This document shows positions 4,263 to 38,447 of a DNA stretch of 54,863 nt, one piece after another. Numbering within the stretch: the stretch's first letter is position 1; each line of letters opens with the position of its first letter. The DNA is taken from NCBI GenBank assembly GCA_903851235.1, contig CAINNR010000028.1, positions 1 to 54,863 of the forward strand, given 5' to 3'. The notes beneath the pieces are model-generated. The model was not told the DNA's origin. It ran no database searches and saw only the letters and a list, made by a program, of their open reading frames with translations. The position numbers and the translations under genes were made by a program. The stretch is from an uncultured Candidatus Berkelbacteria bacterium (GTDB lineage: Bacteria > Patescibacteriota > UBA1384 > XYA2-FULL-43-10 > CAINNR01).

Positions 4263-5117
4263 TTATTTATTTTGAACACTAAAATCAATATCCTTGGTAT
4301 AATCAATCGTTCCGGCATGAGTGCCAATTGCATGCTCTGATGCCCGAGAAATATATTCCTTAATTTTCTCTTGCCTTTGCTCAGTAGTTAAATTCTGATT
4401 ATTTATTGCTGGTCCGCCTATACAGCCGCCAGGACAGTTAAGAAAATCGAAGAATCGATGTATATTCTCCCCCGACTCCATTAGATCAAGTTCGGTTTTG
4501 AGATTATTAATACTATCAACAATCATCACCTCTCCTTTTTGAAAAAGCCTCTGAATGTGGGATGTCCCAGCAAGTCCGCCAGAAACAGGATAGATTTTTG
4601 TGTATTCTCTTACAAATGAATCAAAGAAATATTTGCGGTTAAAATCCTCCTCTTTAATCTCCTGATTTTCAAATAATAATTTGAGCTCCTTTAATGTGAT
4701 AACGCCATCTATAAACGCTGGGTATTTTGGCGCCTCTATTTTTTGTTTAGCAAAACAGGGCGATATAAAAAATACTTTATAGTCGGGGTGATGTTTTTTA
4801 TTAATCTTTGCCATTGCAACCATCGGAGAAACGACGGGAATTAAATATTTAACCAAATCGGGATATGAGTTTTCGATCATCGTGACGCAAATGGGGCAGG
4901 GGGAAGAAATGAAATACCTCTGTTTTGGATGATTCTTAATATATTCTACATAATGCCAGTTTACGATTCGGGCGCCAAAAGTTAATTCTGTCACTTTATT
5001 AAATCCCAATTCACGAAGCATTCCAATAATGGCTGGATACTTAAAATCAAGTATAAAAGTCGGTGCCAACATGGCAATTGATTTATTGTCTCTGACTAAA
5101 CTAATTTGATCTTCCAT
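4263..5117 (-). CDS. [FeFe]-hydrogenase large-subunit C-terminal (H-cluster) domain homologue. It is a stand-alone minimal form with no ferredoxin-like F-cluster domains, and its N-terminus is shorter than a full H-domain.
   Basis: Aligns motif-by-motif with the Clostridium CpI H-domain. L1 TSCCPGW corresponds to SSPCPIC, with the first Cys replaced by Pro and the cluster Cys kept. L2 MPCxxKxxE corresponds to SPCFAKQKIE. L3 MACxGGCxxGGGQP corresponds to NCPGGCIGGP. Flanking segments also match: LRELGFNKV, SPMVAMAKI, IDGVITLKEL. Confidence 0.7.
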   Translation of the reverse strand: MEDQISLVRDNKSIAMLAPTFILDFKYPAIIGMLRELGFNKVTELTFGARIVNWHYVEYIKNHPKQRYFISSPCPICVTMIENSYPDLVKYLIPVVSPMVAMAKINKKHHPDYKVFFISPCFAKQKIEAPKYPAFIDGVITLKELKLLFENQEIKEEDFNRKYFFDSFVREYTKIYPVSGGLAGTSHIQRLFQKGEVMIVDSINNLKTELDLMESGENIHRFFDFLNCPGGCIGGPAINNQNLTTEQRQEKIKEYISRASEHAIGTHAGTIDYTKDIDFSVQNK

Positions 5118-5127
5118 GTTTGTATTG

Positions 5128-5161
5128 TATCAAAATAAATAGACTGGTTCGAGTCCAGTCT
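5128..5161 (-). terminator. Rho-independent terminator downstream of the GC-rich phosphatase gene.
   Basis: AGACTGG TTCGAGT CCAGTCT hairpin followed on the minus strand by a T-rich tract (rc of caaaataaat). Confidence 0.4.
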
Positions 5162-5328: not shown

Positions 5329-6114
5329 CTAATACAGCCGCTGATTGTAACGGCTGAGTTGCAACCGCCCGTTATCGCCCACACTCGGATCGCCCTCAAA
5401 GAGTGTCAGCCCGCAGTTGATGGGCTTCGCCACGTTGTCGTAACGGATGAACTCATGCTGGTCCCAGCGCATGACGGCAGCCATGAATGAGAGGAGTGTG
5501 AGATGGTGGGACACGACCATGACACGCCGTTCCGAGTAGTCACGCACTAGCGTACCGATGAAGGAGCGCAAGCGCTCGATAACATCCGGCACGCTTTCTC
5601 CTTGAGGGTAACGATAGTAGTAGGGACCCTCCATGTCCCGAAGCATCTTCTGCTCGGGGTGGAAGGTTTGGAAAACCCTCCAGTCGTTGTAGACAAGAGC
5701 CAGGCCGTGTTCTTGCTCTCGCAGGCGCACTTCTTCGATCACCGGTACGTCCTTGAGCGCGGGCCACCCCTGGTAGAAACCCTCGAGTGTCAGCTTTGTT
5801 CGCCGGTGGGGCGAGACGAAGATGAATTCAGGCGGCTCCAATGTTTCCTTCAGTCCGTAGCCGACAGAGTTGGATTGCCTATGGCCCTCATCGGAGAGAT
5901 CGGTGTCGTGATCACCCACACCCAATGAGTATTTATCCCAGATTATCTTGGCCAGCCTTCTCGTCTCCTCGCTAAGAAAGTCGGCCTCGAATGCAGCGAC
6001 GAAGGCGGTATAGTCTGGGTCTCTGTCCTTGAGGATCTTCAAGTTGTTGTACGCCGACATAGCGTGGCGAAGCCACGCTAGATACTTGGGCCACTTCATA
6101 ACTCTTCTCCTCAA
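5329..6114 (-). CDS. Histidine phosphatase superfamily protein (phosphoglycerate-mutase-like branch), encoded in an anomalously GC-rich segment (~57%).
   Basis: LSDEGHRQS and SPHRRTKLT motifs near the N-terminus and a VSHHLTL motif later. GC is far above the flanking ~38-40%. The shadow ORFs on the opposite strand are typical of high-GC DNA. Confidence 0.6.
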   Translation of the reverse strand: MRRRVMKWPKYLAWLRHAMSAYNNLKILKDRDPDYTAFVAAFEADFLSEETRRLAKIIWDKYSLGVGDHDTDLSDEGHRQSNSVGYGLKETLEPPEFIFVSPHRRTKLTLEGFYQGWPALKDVPVIEEVRLREQEHGLALVYNDWRVFQTFHPEQKMLRDMEGPYYYRYPQGESVPDVIERLRSFIGTLVRDYSERRVMVVSHHLTLLSFMAAVMRWDQHEFIRYDNVAKPINCGLTLFEGDPSVGDNGRLQLSRYNQRLY

Positions 6115-7735: not shown

Positions 7736-8827
7736 TTAGCGGAAATCGGCGGTATAATAATTTCCGGCAATGCCAATGCCGAAGGTGTTAAAATCGCTCT
7801 CAAGCATAATTGTATTGTGTGGCGGGCTGTTTTTCCAGCCGTTAAATGCTCCGTTTGGACCGGATGAGCCCGTGTAAATTATTTCGCCAGAACAGGTTGT
7901 ACCAACGACAGCGCAACGATTCCAAGGGAGGGATCTGTTTTCTCCAGTGTGACTGAAAATACCAGTTGATGACATCCAGTTTGAATGATTAGCCGCGGCC
8001 CTGCTGATCAGCGGGTCAAGAGATAATTTTGTCAAACCGTTACTTTGGCGATAATTGTTTATTAAATCTGAAAGTTCGATCACCGCCTGACTGTAATTTG
8101 TCGTTGTCGCGCCGCCGCCAGAATCACCACCGGATGGGATGCCACCAGTTGAGCCCATTGAGCCGGTAACTATTTTTTCTAAGTTCAAGTTAACGGTTGT
8201 TTGTTTTTGGCTGATAATGCTAACATTTGTCTTCGCCGCCGATTTATAACCGCTAGCACTAACCGACAGATTATAAATTCCGGCGGCAATACGGAAGGTG
8301 TAATTGCCGGTGACATCGGCTTGAGTGCTGGCAGCGGTATTTTTATCAACCGATAAAGTTAAATTGACGGCAACCTTACAACTAGTACCGGCGCAACTGA
8401 TTTTCCCAAGCAAATCACCTTTTAGCGCCTCCTCGGCTTTTTGCTGTTTATCCGCCAGATACTTAGCGTAGAGTTCATCGAGAGTGGAATTCGCTTCGCC
8501 AATTAAATTATTTGCTAGCGAATAATCTTTGGCCGAGTAAATCGCTTGGTAAATTTTATCTGATTTCTCTTGGACTGCCGTCACATCCATACCGAGTGTT
8601 TGATAAGCAGTTTTTCTCTTCTCCAACTCCTCAAAGGCCGATACCGATCTAAGCGACCGTTCTTGCAAAAGAGCATTTTTTTCAGATTGCCGGTGGATAC
8701 TTATAACTATCAAAACGGTAGTCAAGGAAATTGCGAATAGAAAACCATAAACTATTACTCTAAATAGATTATGCCGAGTCCATTTTTTAATTTTAACGAA
8801 AGTATCTTTGATTCCTTGTCCCCTCAT
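7736..8827 (-). CDS. Membrane-anchored secreted protein with a coiled coil, a carboxypeptidase-regulatory-like beta-sandwich and a C-terminal CAP/SCP (PR-1-like) domain.
   Basis: N-terminal TM (FRVIVYGFLFAISLTTVLIVI). A GNYTFRIAAGIYNLSVSASGYK beta-sandwich signature. C-terminal NNYRQSNGLTKLSLDPLISRAAANHSNWM...FSHTG is typical of the CAP domain. Confidence 0.6.
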   Translation of the reverse strand: MRGQGIKDTFVKIKKWTRHNLFRVIVYGFLFAISLTTVLIVISIHRQSEKNALLQERSLRSVSAFEELEKRKTAYQTLGMDVTAVQEKSDKIYQAIYSAKDYSLANNLIGEANSTLDELYAKYLADKQQKAEEALKGDLLGKISCAGTSCKVAVNLTLSVDKNTAASTQADVTGNYTFRIAAGIYNLSVSASGYKSAAKTNVSIISQKQTTVNLNLEKIVTGSMGSTGGIPSGGDSGGGATTTNYSQAVIELSDLINNYRQSNGLTKLSLDPLISRAAANHSNWMSSTGIFSHTGENRSLPWNRCAVVGTTCSGEIIYTGSSGPNGAFNGWKNSPPHNTIMLESDFNTFGIGIAGNYYTADFR

Positions 8828-26096: not shown

Positions 26097-26171
26097 TGGT
26101 GGGTCTGGATGGATTCGAACCATCGACCAACACCTTATAAGAGTGCCGCTCTACCACTGAGCTACAGACCC
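26097..26171 (-). tRNA. tRNA-Ile (anticodon TAT).
   Basis: Minus-strand cloverleaf: acceptor GGGTCTG/CAGACCC, D-arm GCTCAGTGGTAGAGC, anticodon stem GCACT/GGTGT (two G-U pairs) with loop CTTATAA, T-arm GATGG TTCGAAT CCATC, then ACCA. Confidence 0.7.
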
Positions 26172-26259: not shown

Positions 26260-26829
26260 TTGTATGAAAATAAGATTATGAATGAAACTGAAGTTAAAAT
26301 ATTGCCGGCAGTGACGATTTTGGCGATTATTGTTTTTGGAATTTTTTCTTTTGTTTTGGCAAACGCCTCGGAAATCACGCCGGATAATATTGTTAAACTG
26401 GTTAATGAAGAGCGAACTGCCAACGGATTAAATCCACTAAAAATGAATCCAAAGTTGCAAAGCGCGGCAATTTTCAAATCCAACGATATGATCTATCGGA
26501 ATTATTTTGATCACTACGCTTTCGGTCAAACGCCATGGATGTTTATTATTCGCGCTGGTTATGATTATTCTGTTGCCGGTGAAAATTTGGCCAAAGGTTA
26601 CAGCACTTCGGAGGGAGTTGTTAATGCTTGGATTAATTCGCCCAGCCATCGAGCAAATATTCTAAACCCTGATTTTCAAGATATCGGTGTTGGAGTTGTT
26701 AGAGGAGCATTTACCGCTGACGGTCAAACTGTCGAGACGACAATGACAACGGAGCTATTTGCGACGCCGAAATCGAAAATAGCCGTATTTTTTGAGAGAA
26801 TTTCAAACACCATATTTAGTATTTTTTAA
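26260..26829 (+). CDS. Secreted CAP/SCP (PR-1-like) domain protein.
   Basis: Signal/TM ILPAVTILAIIVFGIFSFVLA. CAP motifs VNEERTANGLNPLKMNPKLQSAA and HYAFGQTPW...GENLAKGY...WINSPSHRANIL. Confidence 0.7.
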   Translation: MYENKIMNETEVKILPAVTILAIIVFGIFSFVLANASEITPDNIVKLVNEERTANGLNPLKMNPKLQSAAIFKSNDMIYRNYFDHYAFGQTPWMFIIRAGYDYSVAGENLAKGYSTSEGVVNAWINSPSHRANILNPDFQDIGVGVVRGAFTADGQTVETTMTTELFATPKSKIAVFFERISNTIFSIF

Positions 26830-38372: not shown

Positions 38373-38447
38373 GCACCGCTAGCTCAATGGTAGAGCAGTG
38401 GCCTTTTAAGCCATTGGTTCCGAGTTCGAGCCTCGGGCGGTGTACCA
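38373..38447 (+). tRNA. tRNA-Lys (anticodon TTT).
   Basis: Acceptor GCACCGC/GCGGTGT, D-arm GCTCAATGGTAGAGC, anticodon stem GTGGC/GCCAT with loop CTTTTAA, T-arm CCGAG TTCGAGC CTCGG, ACCA. A terminator hairpin lies at 38457..38479. Confidence 0.85.

What the first reader, a model, noticed from the sequence alone, without database searches (positions are those of the whole stretch)
4263..5117. Orphan truncated [FeFe]-hydrogenase H-domain homologue lacking the proton-relay cysteine
The 284-aa protein aligns continuously with the C-terminal H-cluster domain of clostridial HydA. It retains all four cysteines that ligate the [4Fe-4S] subcluster and bridge to the 2Fe subsite (the SPC…, SPCFAKQKIE and CPGGC motifs). 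The first Cys of the TSCCP motif (CpI C299, the proton-transfer residue) is replaced by Pro. The N-terminal ~65 residues of a normal H-domain and all ferredoxin-like accessory domains are absent. No HydE/F/G maturase genes are nearby. This points to a Nar1/sensory-like or degenerate hydrogenase-derived protein rather than a working H2-evolving enzyme. That is unusual for a minimal-genome fermenter and may act as an Fe-S scaffold or sensor.
Basis: partly seen in the sequence, partly recalled or inferred. Interest (0 to 1): 0.55.

Follow-up and report, generated by a model that had tools for sequence, protein, structure and literature searches.

The report
Minimal stand-alone [FeFe] hydrogenase in CPR bacterium
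The gene encodes a complete, strongly conserved "ultraminimal" [FeFe] hydrogenase made only of the catalytic domain; it is the bacterial (Patescibacteria) counterpart of enzymes recently shown to be active in DPANN archaea, not a truncated or decaying relic.

Summary
The ORF at 4263..5117 (-), 284 aa, is real. It matches Pfam Fe_hyd_lg_C over the whole profile (E 1.9e-38). The four H-cluster cysteines are kept, and Pro replaces the proton-relay Cys (CpI C299). No accessory Fe-S domains are present, and no hydE/F/G genes lie in the 55-kb window.

The "truncated, orphan, degenerate" reading is wrong. The protein aligns with CpI from residue 211 to the C-terminus, so it is small because loops are shortened, not because an N-terminal piece is missing. 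Five in-frame stops rule out an upstream extension. Hundreds of 275-300-aa homologues exist in Patescibacteria (57-83% identity) and in DPANN archaea (about 40%). dN/dS against the closest orthologue is 0.05.

None of 238 family members has Cys at the C299 position (they have P, V or A), and the whole group-A proton pathway is replaced. Residues that hold the 2Fe subsite (APS/T, K358, E361) are invariant.

The Patescibacteria and DPANN proteins form a clade (94% NJ bootstrap). Their nearest relatives are multidomain sensory hydrogenases. This fits "group E" of Greening et al. 2024, whose member Fm evolves H2 in vitro. In the Dojkabacteria-type branch the gene sits beside 2-oxoacid:ferredoxin oxidoreductase and ADP-forming acetyl-CoA synthetase genes.

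The most likely role is ferredoxin-dependent fermentative H2 production. This is a new member of a known kind and of moderate interest.

The parts
4263..5117 (-). Complete CDS of a 284-aa stand-alone H-domain [FeFe] hydrogenase (ATG 5117..5115, TAA 4265..4263)
   Evidence: ORF listed. PF02906 at E 1.9e-38 over the whole profile. AlphaFold2 model from a 52-sequence alignment has pLDDT 89.1 and pTM 0.89. Foldseek top hits are all [FeFe] hydrogenase H-domains, TM-score normalised to the query (TMq) 0.7-0.8, E about 1e-14. dN/dS is 0.05 against the L001 orthologue.
5055..5069 (-). L17-A18-P19-T20-F21, equivalent to CpI A230-P231-S232 (backbone contacts to a CN ligand of the 2Fe subsite)
   Evidence: A and P are invariant and S/T nearly so in all clades. 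The structural role is taken from established CpI literature, not tested here.
4929..4952 (-). Y56..H63: the positions of the group-A proton-pathway residues E279, E282 and R286 are occupied by Y56, Y59 and H63
   Evidence: Y56 is nearly invariant across the Patescibacteria, archaeal and sensory-type relatives. Y59 and H/N63 are conserved only in the query's own subclade. The HMMER pairwise alignment shifts this stretch by one residue, so the exact pairing is uncertain.
4893..4904 (-). S72-P73-C74-P75: L1 motif (TSCCP in group A). P73 replaces the proton-relay C299; C74 = C300 is a [4Fe-4S] ligand
   Evidence: P is found in 118 of 120 Patescibacteria hits. Archaeal hits have V (85), P (23) or A (10) and never C.
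4734..4763 (-). S119-P120-C121-F-A-K124-Q-K-I-E128: L2 motif (MPCxxKxxE). C121 = C355, K124 = K358, E128 = E361, and S119 replaces M353
   Evidence: C, K and E are invariant in all 102 stand-alone relatives examined. M353S is the substitution reported for TamHydS (PMC8163306).
4410..4442 (-). L226-N-C228-P-G-G-C232-I-G-G-P236: L3 motif. C228 = C499; C232 = C503, the Cys that bridges to the 2Fe subsite; L226 replaces M497
5141..5161 (-). Terminator-like hairpin plus T-run between the upstream His_Phos_1 gene and the hydrogenase start codon. It suggests the hydrogenase gene is transcribed on its own
   Evidence: This is a consensus scan only; three sites were found against 1.1 expected, so the evidence is weak.

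Best explanation
The gene encodes an intact, functional, H-domain-only ('ultraminimal', M1-type) [FeFe] hydrogenase. It belongs to the clade that unites Patescibacteria (CPR) proteins with the DPANN-archaeal enzymes described as group E.

Shown here:
- The full H-domain fold is present.
- The three [4Fe-4S] Cys ligands (C74, C121, C228) and the bridging Cys (C232) are present.
- The residues that hold the 2Fe subsite are invariant (A18-P19-T20, P98, K124, E128).
- There is no accessory cluster domain.
- Selection is strongly purifying.

Inferred:
- A reduced low-potential ferredoxin, made by a 2-oxoacid:ferredoxin oxidoreductase during fermentation, docks directly on the exposed [4Fe-4S] side, as it does with algal HydA1.
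- Electrons pass to the 2Fe subsite, protons are reduced to H2, and the enzyme thereby re-oxidises ferredoxin in a cell with minimal metabolism.
- Protons must arrive by a non-canonical route, because all five group-A pathway residues are replaced (C299P, E279Y, E282Y, R286H, S319I). A water-filled path to the solvent-exposed site is the simplest possibility.
- How the 2Fe subsite is made is unknown. No hydE/F/G gene lies in the window or within 10 kb of 79 homologous loci.

My estimates for the separate steps are about 0.9 for clade membership, about 0.75 for binding of an H-cluster, and about 0.55 for net H2 evolution in vivo.
For: Domain and fold. Ligand and pocket residues are mapped to verified CpI numbering.

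Family conservation and length. dN/dS is 0.05. No upstream extension is possible.

Clade: DPANN homologues share 39-43% identity over their full length. The best 50%-identity clusters are all stand-alone proteins of 250-316 aa, followed by sensory multidomain proteins. In the NJ tree the Patescibacteria + archaeal stand-alone clade has 94% bootstrap support against 35 sensory-type proteins and CpI.

Functional context in the family, within 10 kb of the hydrogenase gene: POR alpha in 19 and POR beta in 24 of 35 Dojkabacteria-type loci, each also in 2 of 10 archaeal loci, and ADP-forming acetyl-CoA synthetase in 27 of 35.

Literature: group E enzymes average 286 aa and contain only the H-domain with condensed loops. 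[quoted passage not shown] Fm binds one [4Fe-4S] cluster plus [2Fe]adt, shows H-cluster FTIR states, and is bidirectional with a bias to H+ reduction. Most archaeal hosts, including the closed Fm genome, lack HydEFG (PMC11216029).
Against: No member of the bacterial branch has been assayed.

The active-site signature (no C299, M353S, M497L) is that of TamHydS, a slow, putatively sensory enzyme (PMC8163306).

The POR/ACD synteny is seen only in the Dojkabacteria-type and archaeal branches. It is absent from all 35 loci of the query's own branch and from the window. No ferredoxin gene lies near any of the 80 loci.

No maturase genes were found, so assembly of the 2Fe subsite in vivo is unproven.

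I could not obtain the Fm or Na reference sequences. Identity of this clade with 'group E' therefore rests on matching descriptions, not on a direct comparison.

The NJ phylogeny uses a simple distance correction, and the branching order inside the clade is unresolved.
Confidence: 0.6

Rival explanations
1. It is a low-turnover H2-sensing or H2-oxidising hydrogenase rather than an H2 producer. In this reading it binds an H-cluster but, lacking the Cys relay and both methionines, it works like the group C/D HydS proteins. It would either signal H2 levels through a separate partner or feed electrons from H2 into thiol redox metabolism (ferredoxin to an FTR-like protein to thioredoxin).
For: The closest multidomain relatives are sensory architectures. 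C299 and the whole proton pathway are absent, and M353S/M497L is as in TamHydS. In about 10 Staskawiczbacteria-type loci of the query's own branch the order is thioredoxin, FTR catalytic-subunit-like protein (PF02943, E 6e-26), Obg, small membrane protein, hydrogenase, all on one strand. In L007 Trx, FTRc and the hydrogenase are directly adjacent.
Against: The protein has no PAS, HisKA or MCP domain, no N-terminal F-clusters and no C-terminal PF04060 cluster. No regulator is adjacent in the window; the two receiver-domain genes lie 44 kb away. The Trx-FTRc synteny is absent from the window and from L001, and it may simply reflect shared ancestry within one lineage. The only characterised enzyme of the matching archaeal group is biased to H+ reduction, unlike TmHydS (PMC11216029).
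Confidence: 0.2
2. It is a Nar1/CIAO3-like Fe-S protein that carries only the [4Fe-4S] cluster, with no 2Fe subsite, and acts as an Fe-S scaffold or redox protein. This is essentially the first reader's proposal.
For: No hydE/F/G genes occur in the 55-kb window. A motif prefilter over the ±10-kb flanks of the 79 related loci found none. The four radical-SAM neighbours it did find are HemW, an AmmeMemoRadiSam enzyme, rSAM mobile pair B, and an unclassified MoaA/SPASM-like protein, none of them HydE or HydG. Most archaeal hosts of [FeFe] hydrogenases also lack maturases (PMC11216029).
Against: Residues whose known role is to hold the 2Fe subsite are invariant across bacterial and archaeal members over more than 60% sequence divergence: K358, E361, A230-P231-S/T232, P324 and the bridging C503. 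The protein lacks the N-terminal Cys-rich cluster motif of Nar1 proteins, having only 5 Cys in total. A homologous archaeal enzyme accepts [2Fe]adt and turns over H2 (PMC11216029). A direct sequence comparison with Nar1/CIAO3 was not made.
Confidence: 0.12
3. It is a decaying pseudogene or fragment of a larger hydrogenase gene, produced by a frameshift or truncation.
For: It is much shorter than CpI (574 aa) or HydA1 (457 aa). The neighbouring His_Phos_1 gene has foreign-looking base composition (55.6% against 36.3% GC), which hints at rearrangement.
Against: The whole Pfam profile is covered. Length is conserved across hundreds of homologues in two domains of life. dN/dS is 0.05. Multiple in-frame stops lie upstream and there is no upstream ORF. 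The same gene with the same neighbours is found in an independent ENA assembly.
Confidence: 0.01

Closest known systems
Group E 'ultraminimal' [FeFe] hydrogenases of DPANN archaea (Greening et al., Cell 2024, PMC11216029; e.g. Fm from Ca. Forterrea multitransposorum)
   Same: Both contain only the H-domain and are about 280-290 aa with condensed loops. Both have a single [4Fe-4S] cluster plus the 2Fe site ligands and non-canonical proton-transfer residues. Both are closest to the sensory group C, occur in ultra-small-genome episymbiont-type organisms, and usually have no hydEFG genes. DPANN (Nanoarchaeia, Woesearchaeota, Pacearchaeota) homologues share 39-43% identity over their full length and form one clade with the query.
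   Different: The host here is bacterial (Patescibacteria), whereas the paper describes group E as an archaeal monophyletic clade and never mentions CPR. At the C299 position Patescibacteria members have Pro almost exclusively, while archaeal members mostly have Val. The query's branch has a one-residue insertion in the L2 motif (CxAKxxxE against CxxKKxE). A direct comparison with the Fm and Na sequences was not possible.
Putative sensory [FeFe] hydrogenases: group C TmHydS (M2f) and group D TamHydS (M2e) (PMC8163306)
   Same: Both lack C299 and all group-A proton-pathway residues. M353 is replaced by Ser and M497 by Leu, exactly as in TamHydS. They are the next-closest relatives by sequence (30-38% identity).
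   Different: The sensory proteins carry an N-terminal 2x[4Fe-4S] domain and a C-terminal Cx2Cx4Cx16C cluster (PF04060), and often PAS, HisKA, MCP or sigma-54 modules. They usually sit next to a group A hydrogenase. The query has none of these features.
Chlamydomonas reinhardtii HydA1 (group A, M1 architecture)
   Same: Both are H-domain-only enzymes without F-clusters that must take electrons directly from ferredoxin. The structural match has TMq about 0.7.
   Different: HydA1 is 457 aa, keeps TSCCP with the Cys relay, the Glu/Ser/Arg proton pathway and both methionines, and depends on HydEFG. HMMER aligns only two partial stretches of the query to it (residues 33-148 and 193-250); identity to the group-A enzyme CpI over the whole H-domain is 21%.
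Nar1 / CIAO3 (NARFL) hydrogenase-like proteins of eukaryotes
   Same: Both have the PF02906 fold and occur in organisms without HydEFG.
   Different: From general knowledge, not tested here: Nar1 proteins carry an extra N-terminal Cys-rich cluster and have lost the 2Fe-pocket residues. The query has no N-terminal Cys motif and keeps the pocket residues.

Membership tests
[FeFe] hydrogenase H-domain superfamily (PF02906) | Significant full-length match to Fe_hyd_lg_C | tested here: met
   133 bits against a cut-off of 22.1, profile positions 4-245 of 245.
[FeFe] hydrogenase H-domain superfamily (PF02906) | H-domain fold | tested here: met
   AF2 model pLDDT 89.1. Foldseek hits are CbA5H, TmHydA, CpI and CrHydA1, E 1e-14 to 1e-12, TMq 0.69-0.80.
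[FeFe] hydrogenase H-domain superfamily (PF02906) | Four H-cluster cysteines (CpI C300, C355, C499, C503) | tested here: met
   C74, C121, C228 and C232; C74, C121 and C228 are invariant in the 121-sequence family alignment and C232 is Cys in 120 of 121, and all four are invariant in the loci and representative sets.
[FeFe] hydrogenase H-domain superfamily (PF02906) | 2Fe-subsite pocket residues (A230-P231-S232, P324, K358, E361) | tested here: met
   A18-P19-T20, P98, K124 and E128, invariant or nearly so in all stand-alone relatives.
Group A prototypical [FeFe] hydrogenase | L1 motif TSCCP with the proton-relay Cys (C299) | tested here: not met
   The motif is SSPCP; P73 sits at the C299 position.
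Group A prototypical [FeFe] hydrogenase | Proton pathway E279/E282/S319/R286 and methionines M353/M497 | tested here: not met
   The equivalents are Y56, Y59, I93, H63, S119 and L226. NCBIfam TIGR02512 scores 61.8 bits against a cut-off of 405.95.
Group B monomeric [FeFe] hydrogenase (NCBIfam TIGR04105 FeFe_hydrog_B1) | Score above the curated cut-off over the full model, including the N-terminal ferredoxin-like part | tested here: not met
   138.7 bits against a cut-off of 450; only model positions 218-460 of 462 are matched.
Group E ultraminimal [FeFe] hydrogenase (PMC11216029) | H-domain only, about 286 aa, no accessory clusters, condensed loops | tested here: met
   284 aa with PF02906 as the only domain. 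The deletions relative to CpI fall in loops.
Group E ultraminimal [FeFe] hydrogenase (PMC11216029) | Phylogenetic clustering with the DPANN stand-alone enzymes, sister to sensory group C | tested here: met
   The Patescibacteria + DPANN clade has 94% NJ bootstrap support against 35 sensory-type proteins and CpI. The ranking of hits agrees.
Group E ultraminimal [FeFe] hydrogenase (PMC11216029) | Clusters with the named reference sequences (Fm, Na) | tested here: inconclusive
   The reference sequences could not be obtained. No supplementary files are held, and no hit is named Forterrea or CABMGN01.
Group E ultraminimal [FeFe] hydrogenase (PMC11216029) | Archaeal host (as the group was described) | tested here: not met
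   The closest relatives are Patescibacteria MAGs, at 83% identity to JBAZNP010000001.1. The window carries bacterial genes such as MurJ, FtsH, L,D-transpeptidase and DivIC.
Group E ultraminimal [FeFe] hydrogenase (PMC11216029) | H-cluster binding and H2 turnover | not testable with these tools
   This needs expression, [2Fe]adt maturation, FTIR and activity assays.
Group C/D sensory [FeFe] hydrogenase (HydS) | Loss of C299 and of the group-A proton pathway | tested here: met
   the defining description is in PMC8163306.
Group C/D sensory [FeFe] hydrogenase (HydS) | N-terminal 2x[4Fe-4S] domain and C-terminal four-Cys cluster (PF04060), with or without a PAS domain | tested here: not met
   No Fer4, FeS or PAS hit even at E up to 1. 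The protein has only five Cys.
Nar1/CIAO3 hydrogenase-like proteins | N-terminal Cys-rich cluster motif; degenerate 2Fe pocket | tested here: not met
   There is no Cys before residue 74 and the pocket residues are conserved. The Nar1 features are taken from general knowledge; no Nar1 sequence was aligned.

The most novel reading that the evidence does not exclude
Patescibacteria and DPANN cells that carry these ultraminimal hydrogenases may make an active H-cluster without HydE/F/G. One route would be to acquire a pre-formed 2Fe precursor, or another cofactor, from their hosts.

A candidate participant is an uncharacterised membrane protein of about 175-190 aa with roughly five transmembrane helices. 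It sits within 7-165 bp of the hydrogenase gene in 27 Dojkabacteria-type, 2 Parcubacteria-type and 2 archaeal loci. One member weakly resembles an ECF-transporter S component.

This would be a new maturation or salvage route for the H-cluster, shared across domains by episymbionts. The evidence does not exclude it and barely supports it. The membrane protein is absent from the window, and a profile search against solved structures found nothing.
Probability: 0.07. Interest if true: 0.85.

Novelty: new member of a known kind. Interest (0 to 1): 0.45.

Why it matters
The smallest known hydrogenases were described in 2024 as an archaeal (DPANN) invention. This locus and its relatives show that the same design is widespread in CPR/Patescibacteria, the bacterial counterpart of DPANN.

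Several consequences follow.
- It points to inter-domain gene exchange, or an ancient shared origin, among ultra-small episymbionts.
- It gives many CPR lineages a direct way to dispose of fermentative electrons as H2, which matters for hydrogen budgets in groundwater and sediments.
- It provides hundreds of natural sequence variants of a ~280-residue H2 catalyst that works without the canonical Cys proton relay (P, V or A at that position) and apparently without the canonical maturases.

Both of those last points are open mechanistic questions and could be tested directly with these proteins.

Tried and rejected
1. Frameshift or longer ORF: rejected. There are in-frame stops and no upstream ORF.
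2. Single-sequence AlphaFold2: useless (pLDDT 32.6). Only the alignment-based model was used.
3. Obtaining the Fm or Na group E reference sequences failed. The paper's supplements are not held. A profile search with 10 archaeal homologues returned no hit named Forterrea or CABMGN01. A cluster look-up gave no accessions. The 777-kb archaeal contig that carries P0334 is GCA_040961015.1, not Forterrea.
4. HydE/F/G near the gene: none among the window's 39 large ORFs. A motif prefilter of 79 related loci gave six CX3CX2C ORFs. The four of HydE-like size (293-354 aa) were scanned and are radical-SAM genes, none of them HydE or HydG. No N-terminal GxxNxGKS GTPase was found. Whole genomes could not be searched.
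5. Synteny between the window and the 83%-identical orthologue L001: none beyond the hydrogenase gene itself.
6. Ferredoxin genes next to the hydrogenase: none in any of the 80 loci. The single pattern hit in the window is a spurious antisense ORF.
7. The conserved 5-TM neighbour as an ECF S component: only one sub-threshold Pfam hit and no PDB relative with the family profile, so this is left open. The small membrane proteins TM102 and TM126 are unrelated to it by hhalign.
8. Literature on CPR [FeFe] hydrogenases: the papers checked discuss [NiFe] group 3b/4 or groups A-C only. None describes this clade in CPR.
Full report
**Observation**

The minus-strand ORF at 4263..5117 encodes 284 aa. 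It matches Pfam Fe_hyd_lg_C (PF02906) at E 1.9e-38 over profile positions 4-245 of 245. Among NCBIfam hydrogenase models the best is FeFe_hydrog_B1 at 138.7 bits, far below its cut-off of 450 and matching only its C-terminal half. The group A model scores 61.8 bits.

HMMER alignments to solved [FeFe] hydrogenases put the query's 'ISSPCP' opposite 'FTSCCP', 'SPCFAKQ' opposite 'MPCxxKK', and 'NCPGGCIGG' opposite 'ACPGGCxxG'. To number residues reliably I wrote out the CpI sequence from memory and checked it against the PDB. It is identical to 1feh/4xdc except for one residue, which I corrected.

In a joint alignment:
- Query C74, C121, C228 and C232 correspond to CpI C300, C355, C499 and C503.
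- P73 replaces C299.
- The protein has only five cysteines, so no accessory cluster is possible.

**What is not correct in the observation**

The H-domain is not N-terminally truncated. Query residue 1 pairs with CpI residue 211, which is where the alignment to the CpI H-domain begins, and the alignment runs to the CpI C-terminus. The 78 missing residues are ten internal or C-terminal deletions, the largest being CpI 238-248, 338-345, 430-436 plus 441-463, and 555-567.

A missed upstream exon or frameshift is excluded. The 211-bp spacer has five in-frame stops, the closest five codons before the ATG. It has no ORF of 40 aa or more on that strand. A terminator-like hairpin of the upstream gene sits at 5141..5161.

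**It is a conserved family, not an orphan**

A search of 5.8 billion proteins gave 421 hits. All 120 listed carry PF02906 as their only domain; apart from an identical copy called from a later start codon (269 aa) they are 56-77% identical to the query, with median length 284 aa and range 245-313. They are named Patescibacteria, Moranbacteria, Parcubacteria, Staskawiczbacteria or Buchananbacteria.

In GTDB species representatives the family was found at 79 loci.
- 69 loci are in Patescibacteria, including Berkelbacteria, Dojkabacteria/WS6 and Microgenomates. The closest is 83% identical, on a 0.80-Mb scaffold.
- 10 loci are in DPANN archaea (Nanoarchaeia, Woesearchaeota, Pacearchaeota), at 39-43% identity over the full length and 275-303 aa.

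A profile of the archaeal members retrieves 2037 proteins at E <= 1e-10. The top 120 have a median length of 279 aa.

Against the 83% orthologue, dN/dS is 0.05, with dS saturated near 2. The same gene with the same neighbours occurs in an independent ENA assembly.

An AlphaFold2 model built from a 52-sequence alignment is confident (pLDDT 89.1, pTM 0.89). Its best PDB matches are all [FeFe] hydrogenase H-domains, with TM-score normalised to the query (TMq) of 0.69-0.80.

**Active-site anatomy across the family**

Invariant or nearly invariant in the Patescibacteria, archaeal and sensory-type relatives:
- A230-P231-S/T232
- C300-P301
- S323-P324
- P354-C355
- K358 and E361
- C499 and C503, plus the following GG

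Systematically different from group A:
- C299 is P in 118 of 120 Patescibacteria hits. In archaeal hits it is V (85), P (23) or A (10). It is never Cys in 238 sequences.
- E279 is Tyr.
- E282 is Tyr, Ile or Leu.
- R286 is His, Asn or Ser.
- S319 is hydrophobic.
- Q325 is Met.
- M353 is Ser or Gly.
- M497 is Leu, Thr or Asn.

Loss of the proton-relay cysteine is therefore a clade trait that comes with replacement of the entire group-A proton pathway. It is not a lesion in this one gene. The M353S/M497L pair of the query is the same as reported for TamHydS, the group D putative sensor. C299 and the whole pathway are likewise absent in groups C and D (PMC8163306).

**Classification**

An exhaustive phmmer search of 1.84 billion 50%-identity representatives ranks about 22 stand-alone clusters (250-316 aa) first. 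After them come proteins of 480-1000 aa in which the match starts near residue 70.

Eight of the longer proteins were scanned against Pfam, and seven have the sensory build. They combine an N-terminal 2x[4Fe-4S] domain, the H-domain and PF04060 with PAS, HisKA/HATPase, MCPsignal or a sigma-54 activator module. The eighth (P0147, 352 aa) has only Fer4 plus the H-domain.

A neighbour-joining tree was built from 263 well-occupied columns and rooted on CpI. It groups all Patescibacteria and archaeal stand-alone proteins together. In a subsample with 35 sensory-type proteins this clade has 94% bootstrap support. The query's own branch (CPRa) and the Dojkabacteria-type branch (CPRb) each have 100%. 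The archaeal branch has 60%, and the order among the three is unresolved.

This matches the published description of group E (PMC11216029):
- average length 286 aa
- H-domain only, with condensed loops
- different proton-transfer residues
- sister to group C
- hosted by DPANN archaea

That paper treats group E as an archaeal clade and does not mention CPR. I could not retrieve the Fm or Na sequences to test the equivalence directly.

**Function**

Direct evidence exists only for the archaeal enzyme Fm. It holds about 4 Fe per protein, accepts [2Fe]adt, shows H-cluster FTIR states, and is bidirectional with a bias to proton reduction (PMC11216029).

Gene context in the family adds independent support for a fermentative role. 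Within 10 kb of the hydrogenase gene:
- The POR alpha/gamma subunit occurs in 19 of 35 CPRb loci and 2 of 10 archaeal loci.
- The POR beta subunit occurs in 24 of 35 CPRb loci and 2 of 10 archaeal loci.
- ADP-forming acetyl-CoA synthetase occurs in 27 of 35 CPRb loci.

Together these form the module 2-oxoacid to acyl-CoA plus reduced ferredoxin, then to acid plus ATP, with H2 as the electron sink.

This synteny is absent from all 35 CPRa loci, including the window. The window's neighbours are a P-type ATPase, an LPG_synthase_TM protein, a histidine phosphatase and a methyltransferase. No ferredoxin gene is adjacent anywhere. For this particular gene the fermentative role is therefore an inference from homology.

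In about 10 Staskawiczbacteria-type CPRa loci the hydrogenase instead follows thioredoxin, an FTR catalytic-subunit-like protein and Obg on the same strand. In L007 it follows Trx and FTRc directly. That leaves open a link to ferredoxin/thioredoxin redox chemistry.

**Maturation**

No radical-SAM or HydF-like gene occurs among the window's 39 large ORFs. In the flanks of the 79 related loci a motif prefilter flagged six candidate ORFs. The four of 293-354 aa are radical-SAM genes: HemW, an AmmeMemoRadiSam enzyme, rSAM mobile pair B and an unclassified one. None is HydE or HydG.

This agrees with the report that most archaeal hosts lack the maturases. Whole genomes could not be searched here.

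**Verdict**

The sequence observation is largely right. The 'truncated/degenerate/orphan' interpretation is not.

The gene is a bona fide member of the ultraminimal, H-domain-only hydrogenase clade (group E-like), on its bacterial CPR branch. It most likely works as a ferredoxin-dependent H2-evolving enzyme with a non-canonical proton route and an unknown maturation route.

The sensory/uptake reading and the Nar1-like reading remain minority possibilities. This is a new member of a known kind. Its interest is moderate and comes mainly from three things: the cross-domain distribution, the universal absence of the Cys relay, and the missing maturases.

Noticed in passing
window 38606..41551 (-), with tRNA-Lys at 38373..38447 (+): A 981-aa ORF carries a major-vault-protein shoulder domain (PF11978, E 3.1e-22). 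Its GC content is 60%, against 43% for the window, and it lies directly beside a tRNA-Lys gene. It looks like a horizontally acquired island encoding an MVP-like protein in a small-genome bacterium.
   Followed up: no
window 5329..6114 (-): The histidine-phosphatase (His_Phos_1) gene immediately upstream of the hydrogenase gene has 55.6% GC, against 36.3% for the hydrogenase gene. It may be a recent foreign insertion. The same gene order is present in an independent ENA contig.
   Followed up: partly
related loci, e.g. L076:9387-9902 (-), L002:10866-11399 (+), L017:1923-2459 (+), L030:9338-9916 (-), L034:1374-1949 (+): An uncharacterised membrane protein of about 172-193 aa with roughly five transmembrane helices lies within 7-165 bp of the stand-alone hydrogenase gene. 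Its motifs are PQxLxGSxxN, LPSI and MGxxQxxTAxxGG. It is found in 27 Dojkabacteria-type, 2 Parcubacteria-type and 2 archaeal loci, making it the most widely shared neighbour across both domains. It has no Pfam family; one member hits the ECF S-component model weakly (E 0.0028). A profile search of the PDB found no relative. It is absent from the window.
   Followed up: partly
related loci L006, L008, L011-L014, L033, L036 (about 1-5 kb upstream of the hydrogenase gene) and L007:9697-9996: The conserved same-strand order is thioredoxin, ferredoxin:thioredoxin-reductase catalytic-subunit-like protein (PF02943, E 6e-26), Obg, small membrane protein, hydrogenase, small membrane protein. In L007, Trx, FTRc and the hydrogenase are directly adjacent. 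This may indicate a redox link, or it may only be inherited synteny.
   Followed up: partly
L001:11020-11898 (-): In the closest orthologous locus (83% identity) a 293-aa radical-SAM gene lies convergent to the hydrogenase gene, 173 bp downstream. It reaches no NCBIfam cut-off (its best hits are SPASM, NirJ and MoaA-like models) and is not HydE or HydG. L001 shares no other gene with the window.
   Followed up: partly
protein P0147 (352 aa): One protein with an N-terminal 2x[4Fe-4S] ferredoxin domain fused to the H-domain nests inside the otherwise stand-alone clade, on its archaeal side. The ultraminimal form may therefore gain or lose a ferredoxin module.
   Followed up: no
window 43624..44517 (+), 7736..8827 (-), 26260..26829 (+), 26097..26171 (-): These positions hold an ice-binding-like protein (PF11999), two CAP/SCP-domain secreted proteins, and a tRNA-Ile with anticodon TAT. 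All are ordinary CPR-style surface or translation features, though the ice-binding domain hints at a cold habitat.
   Followed up: no
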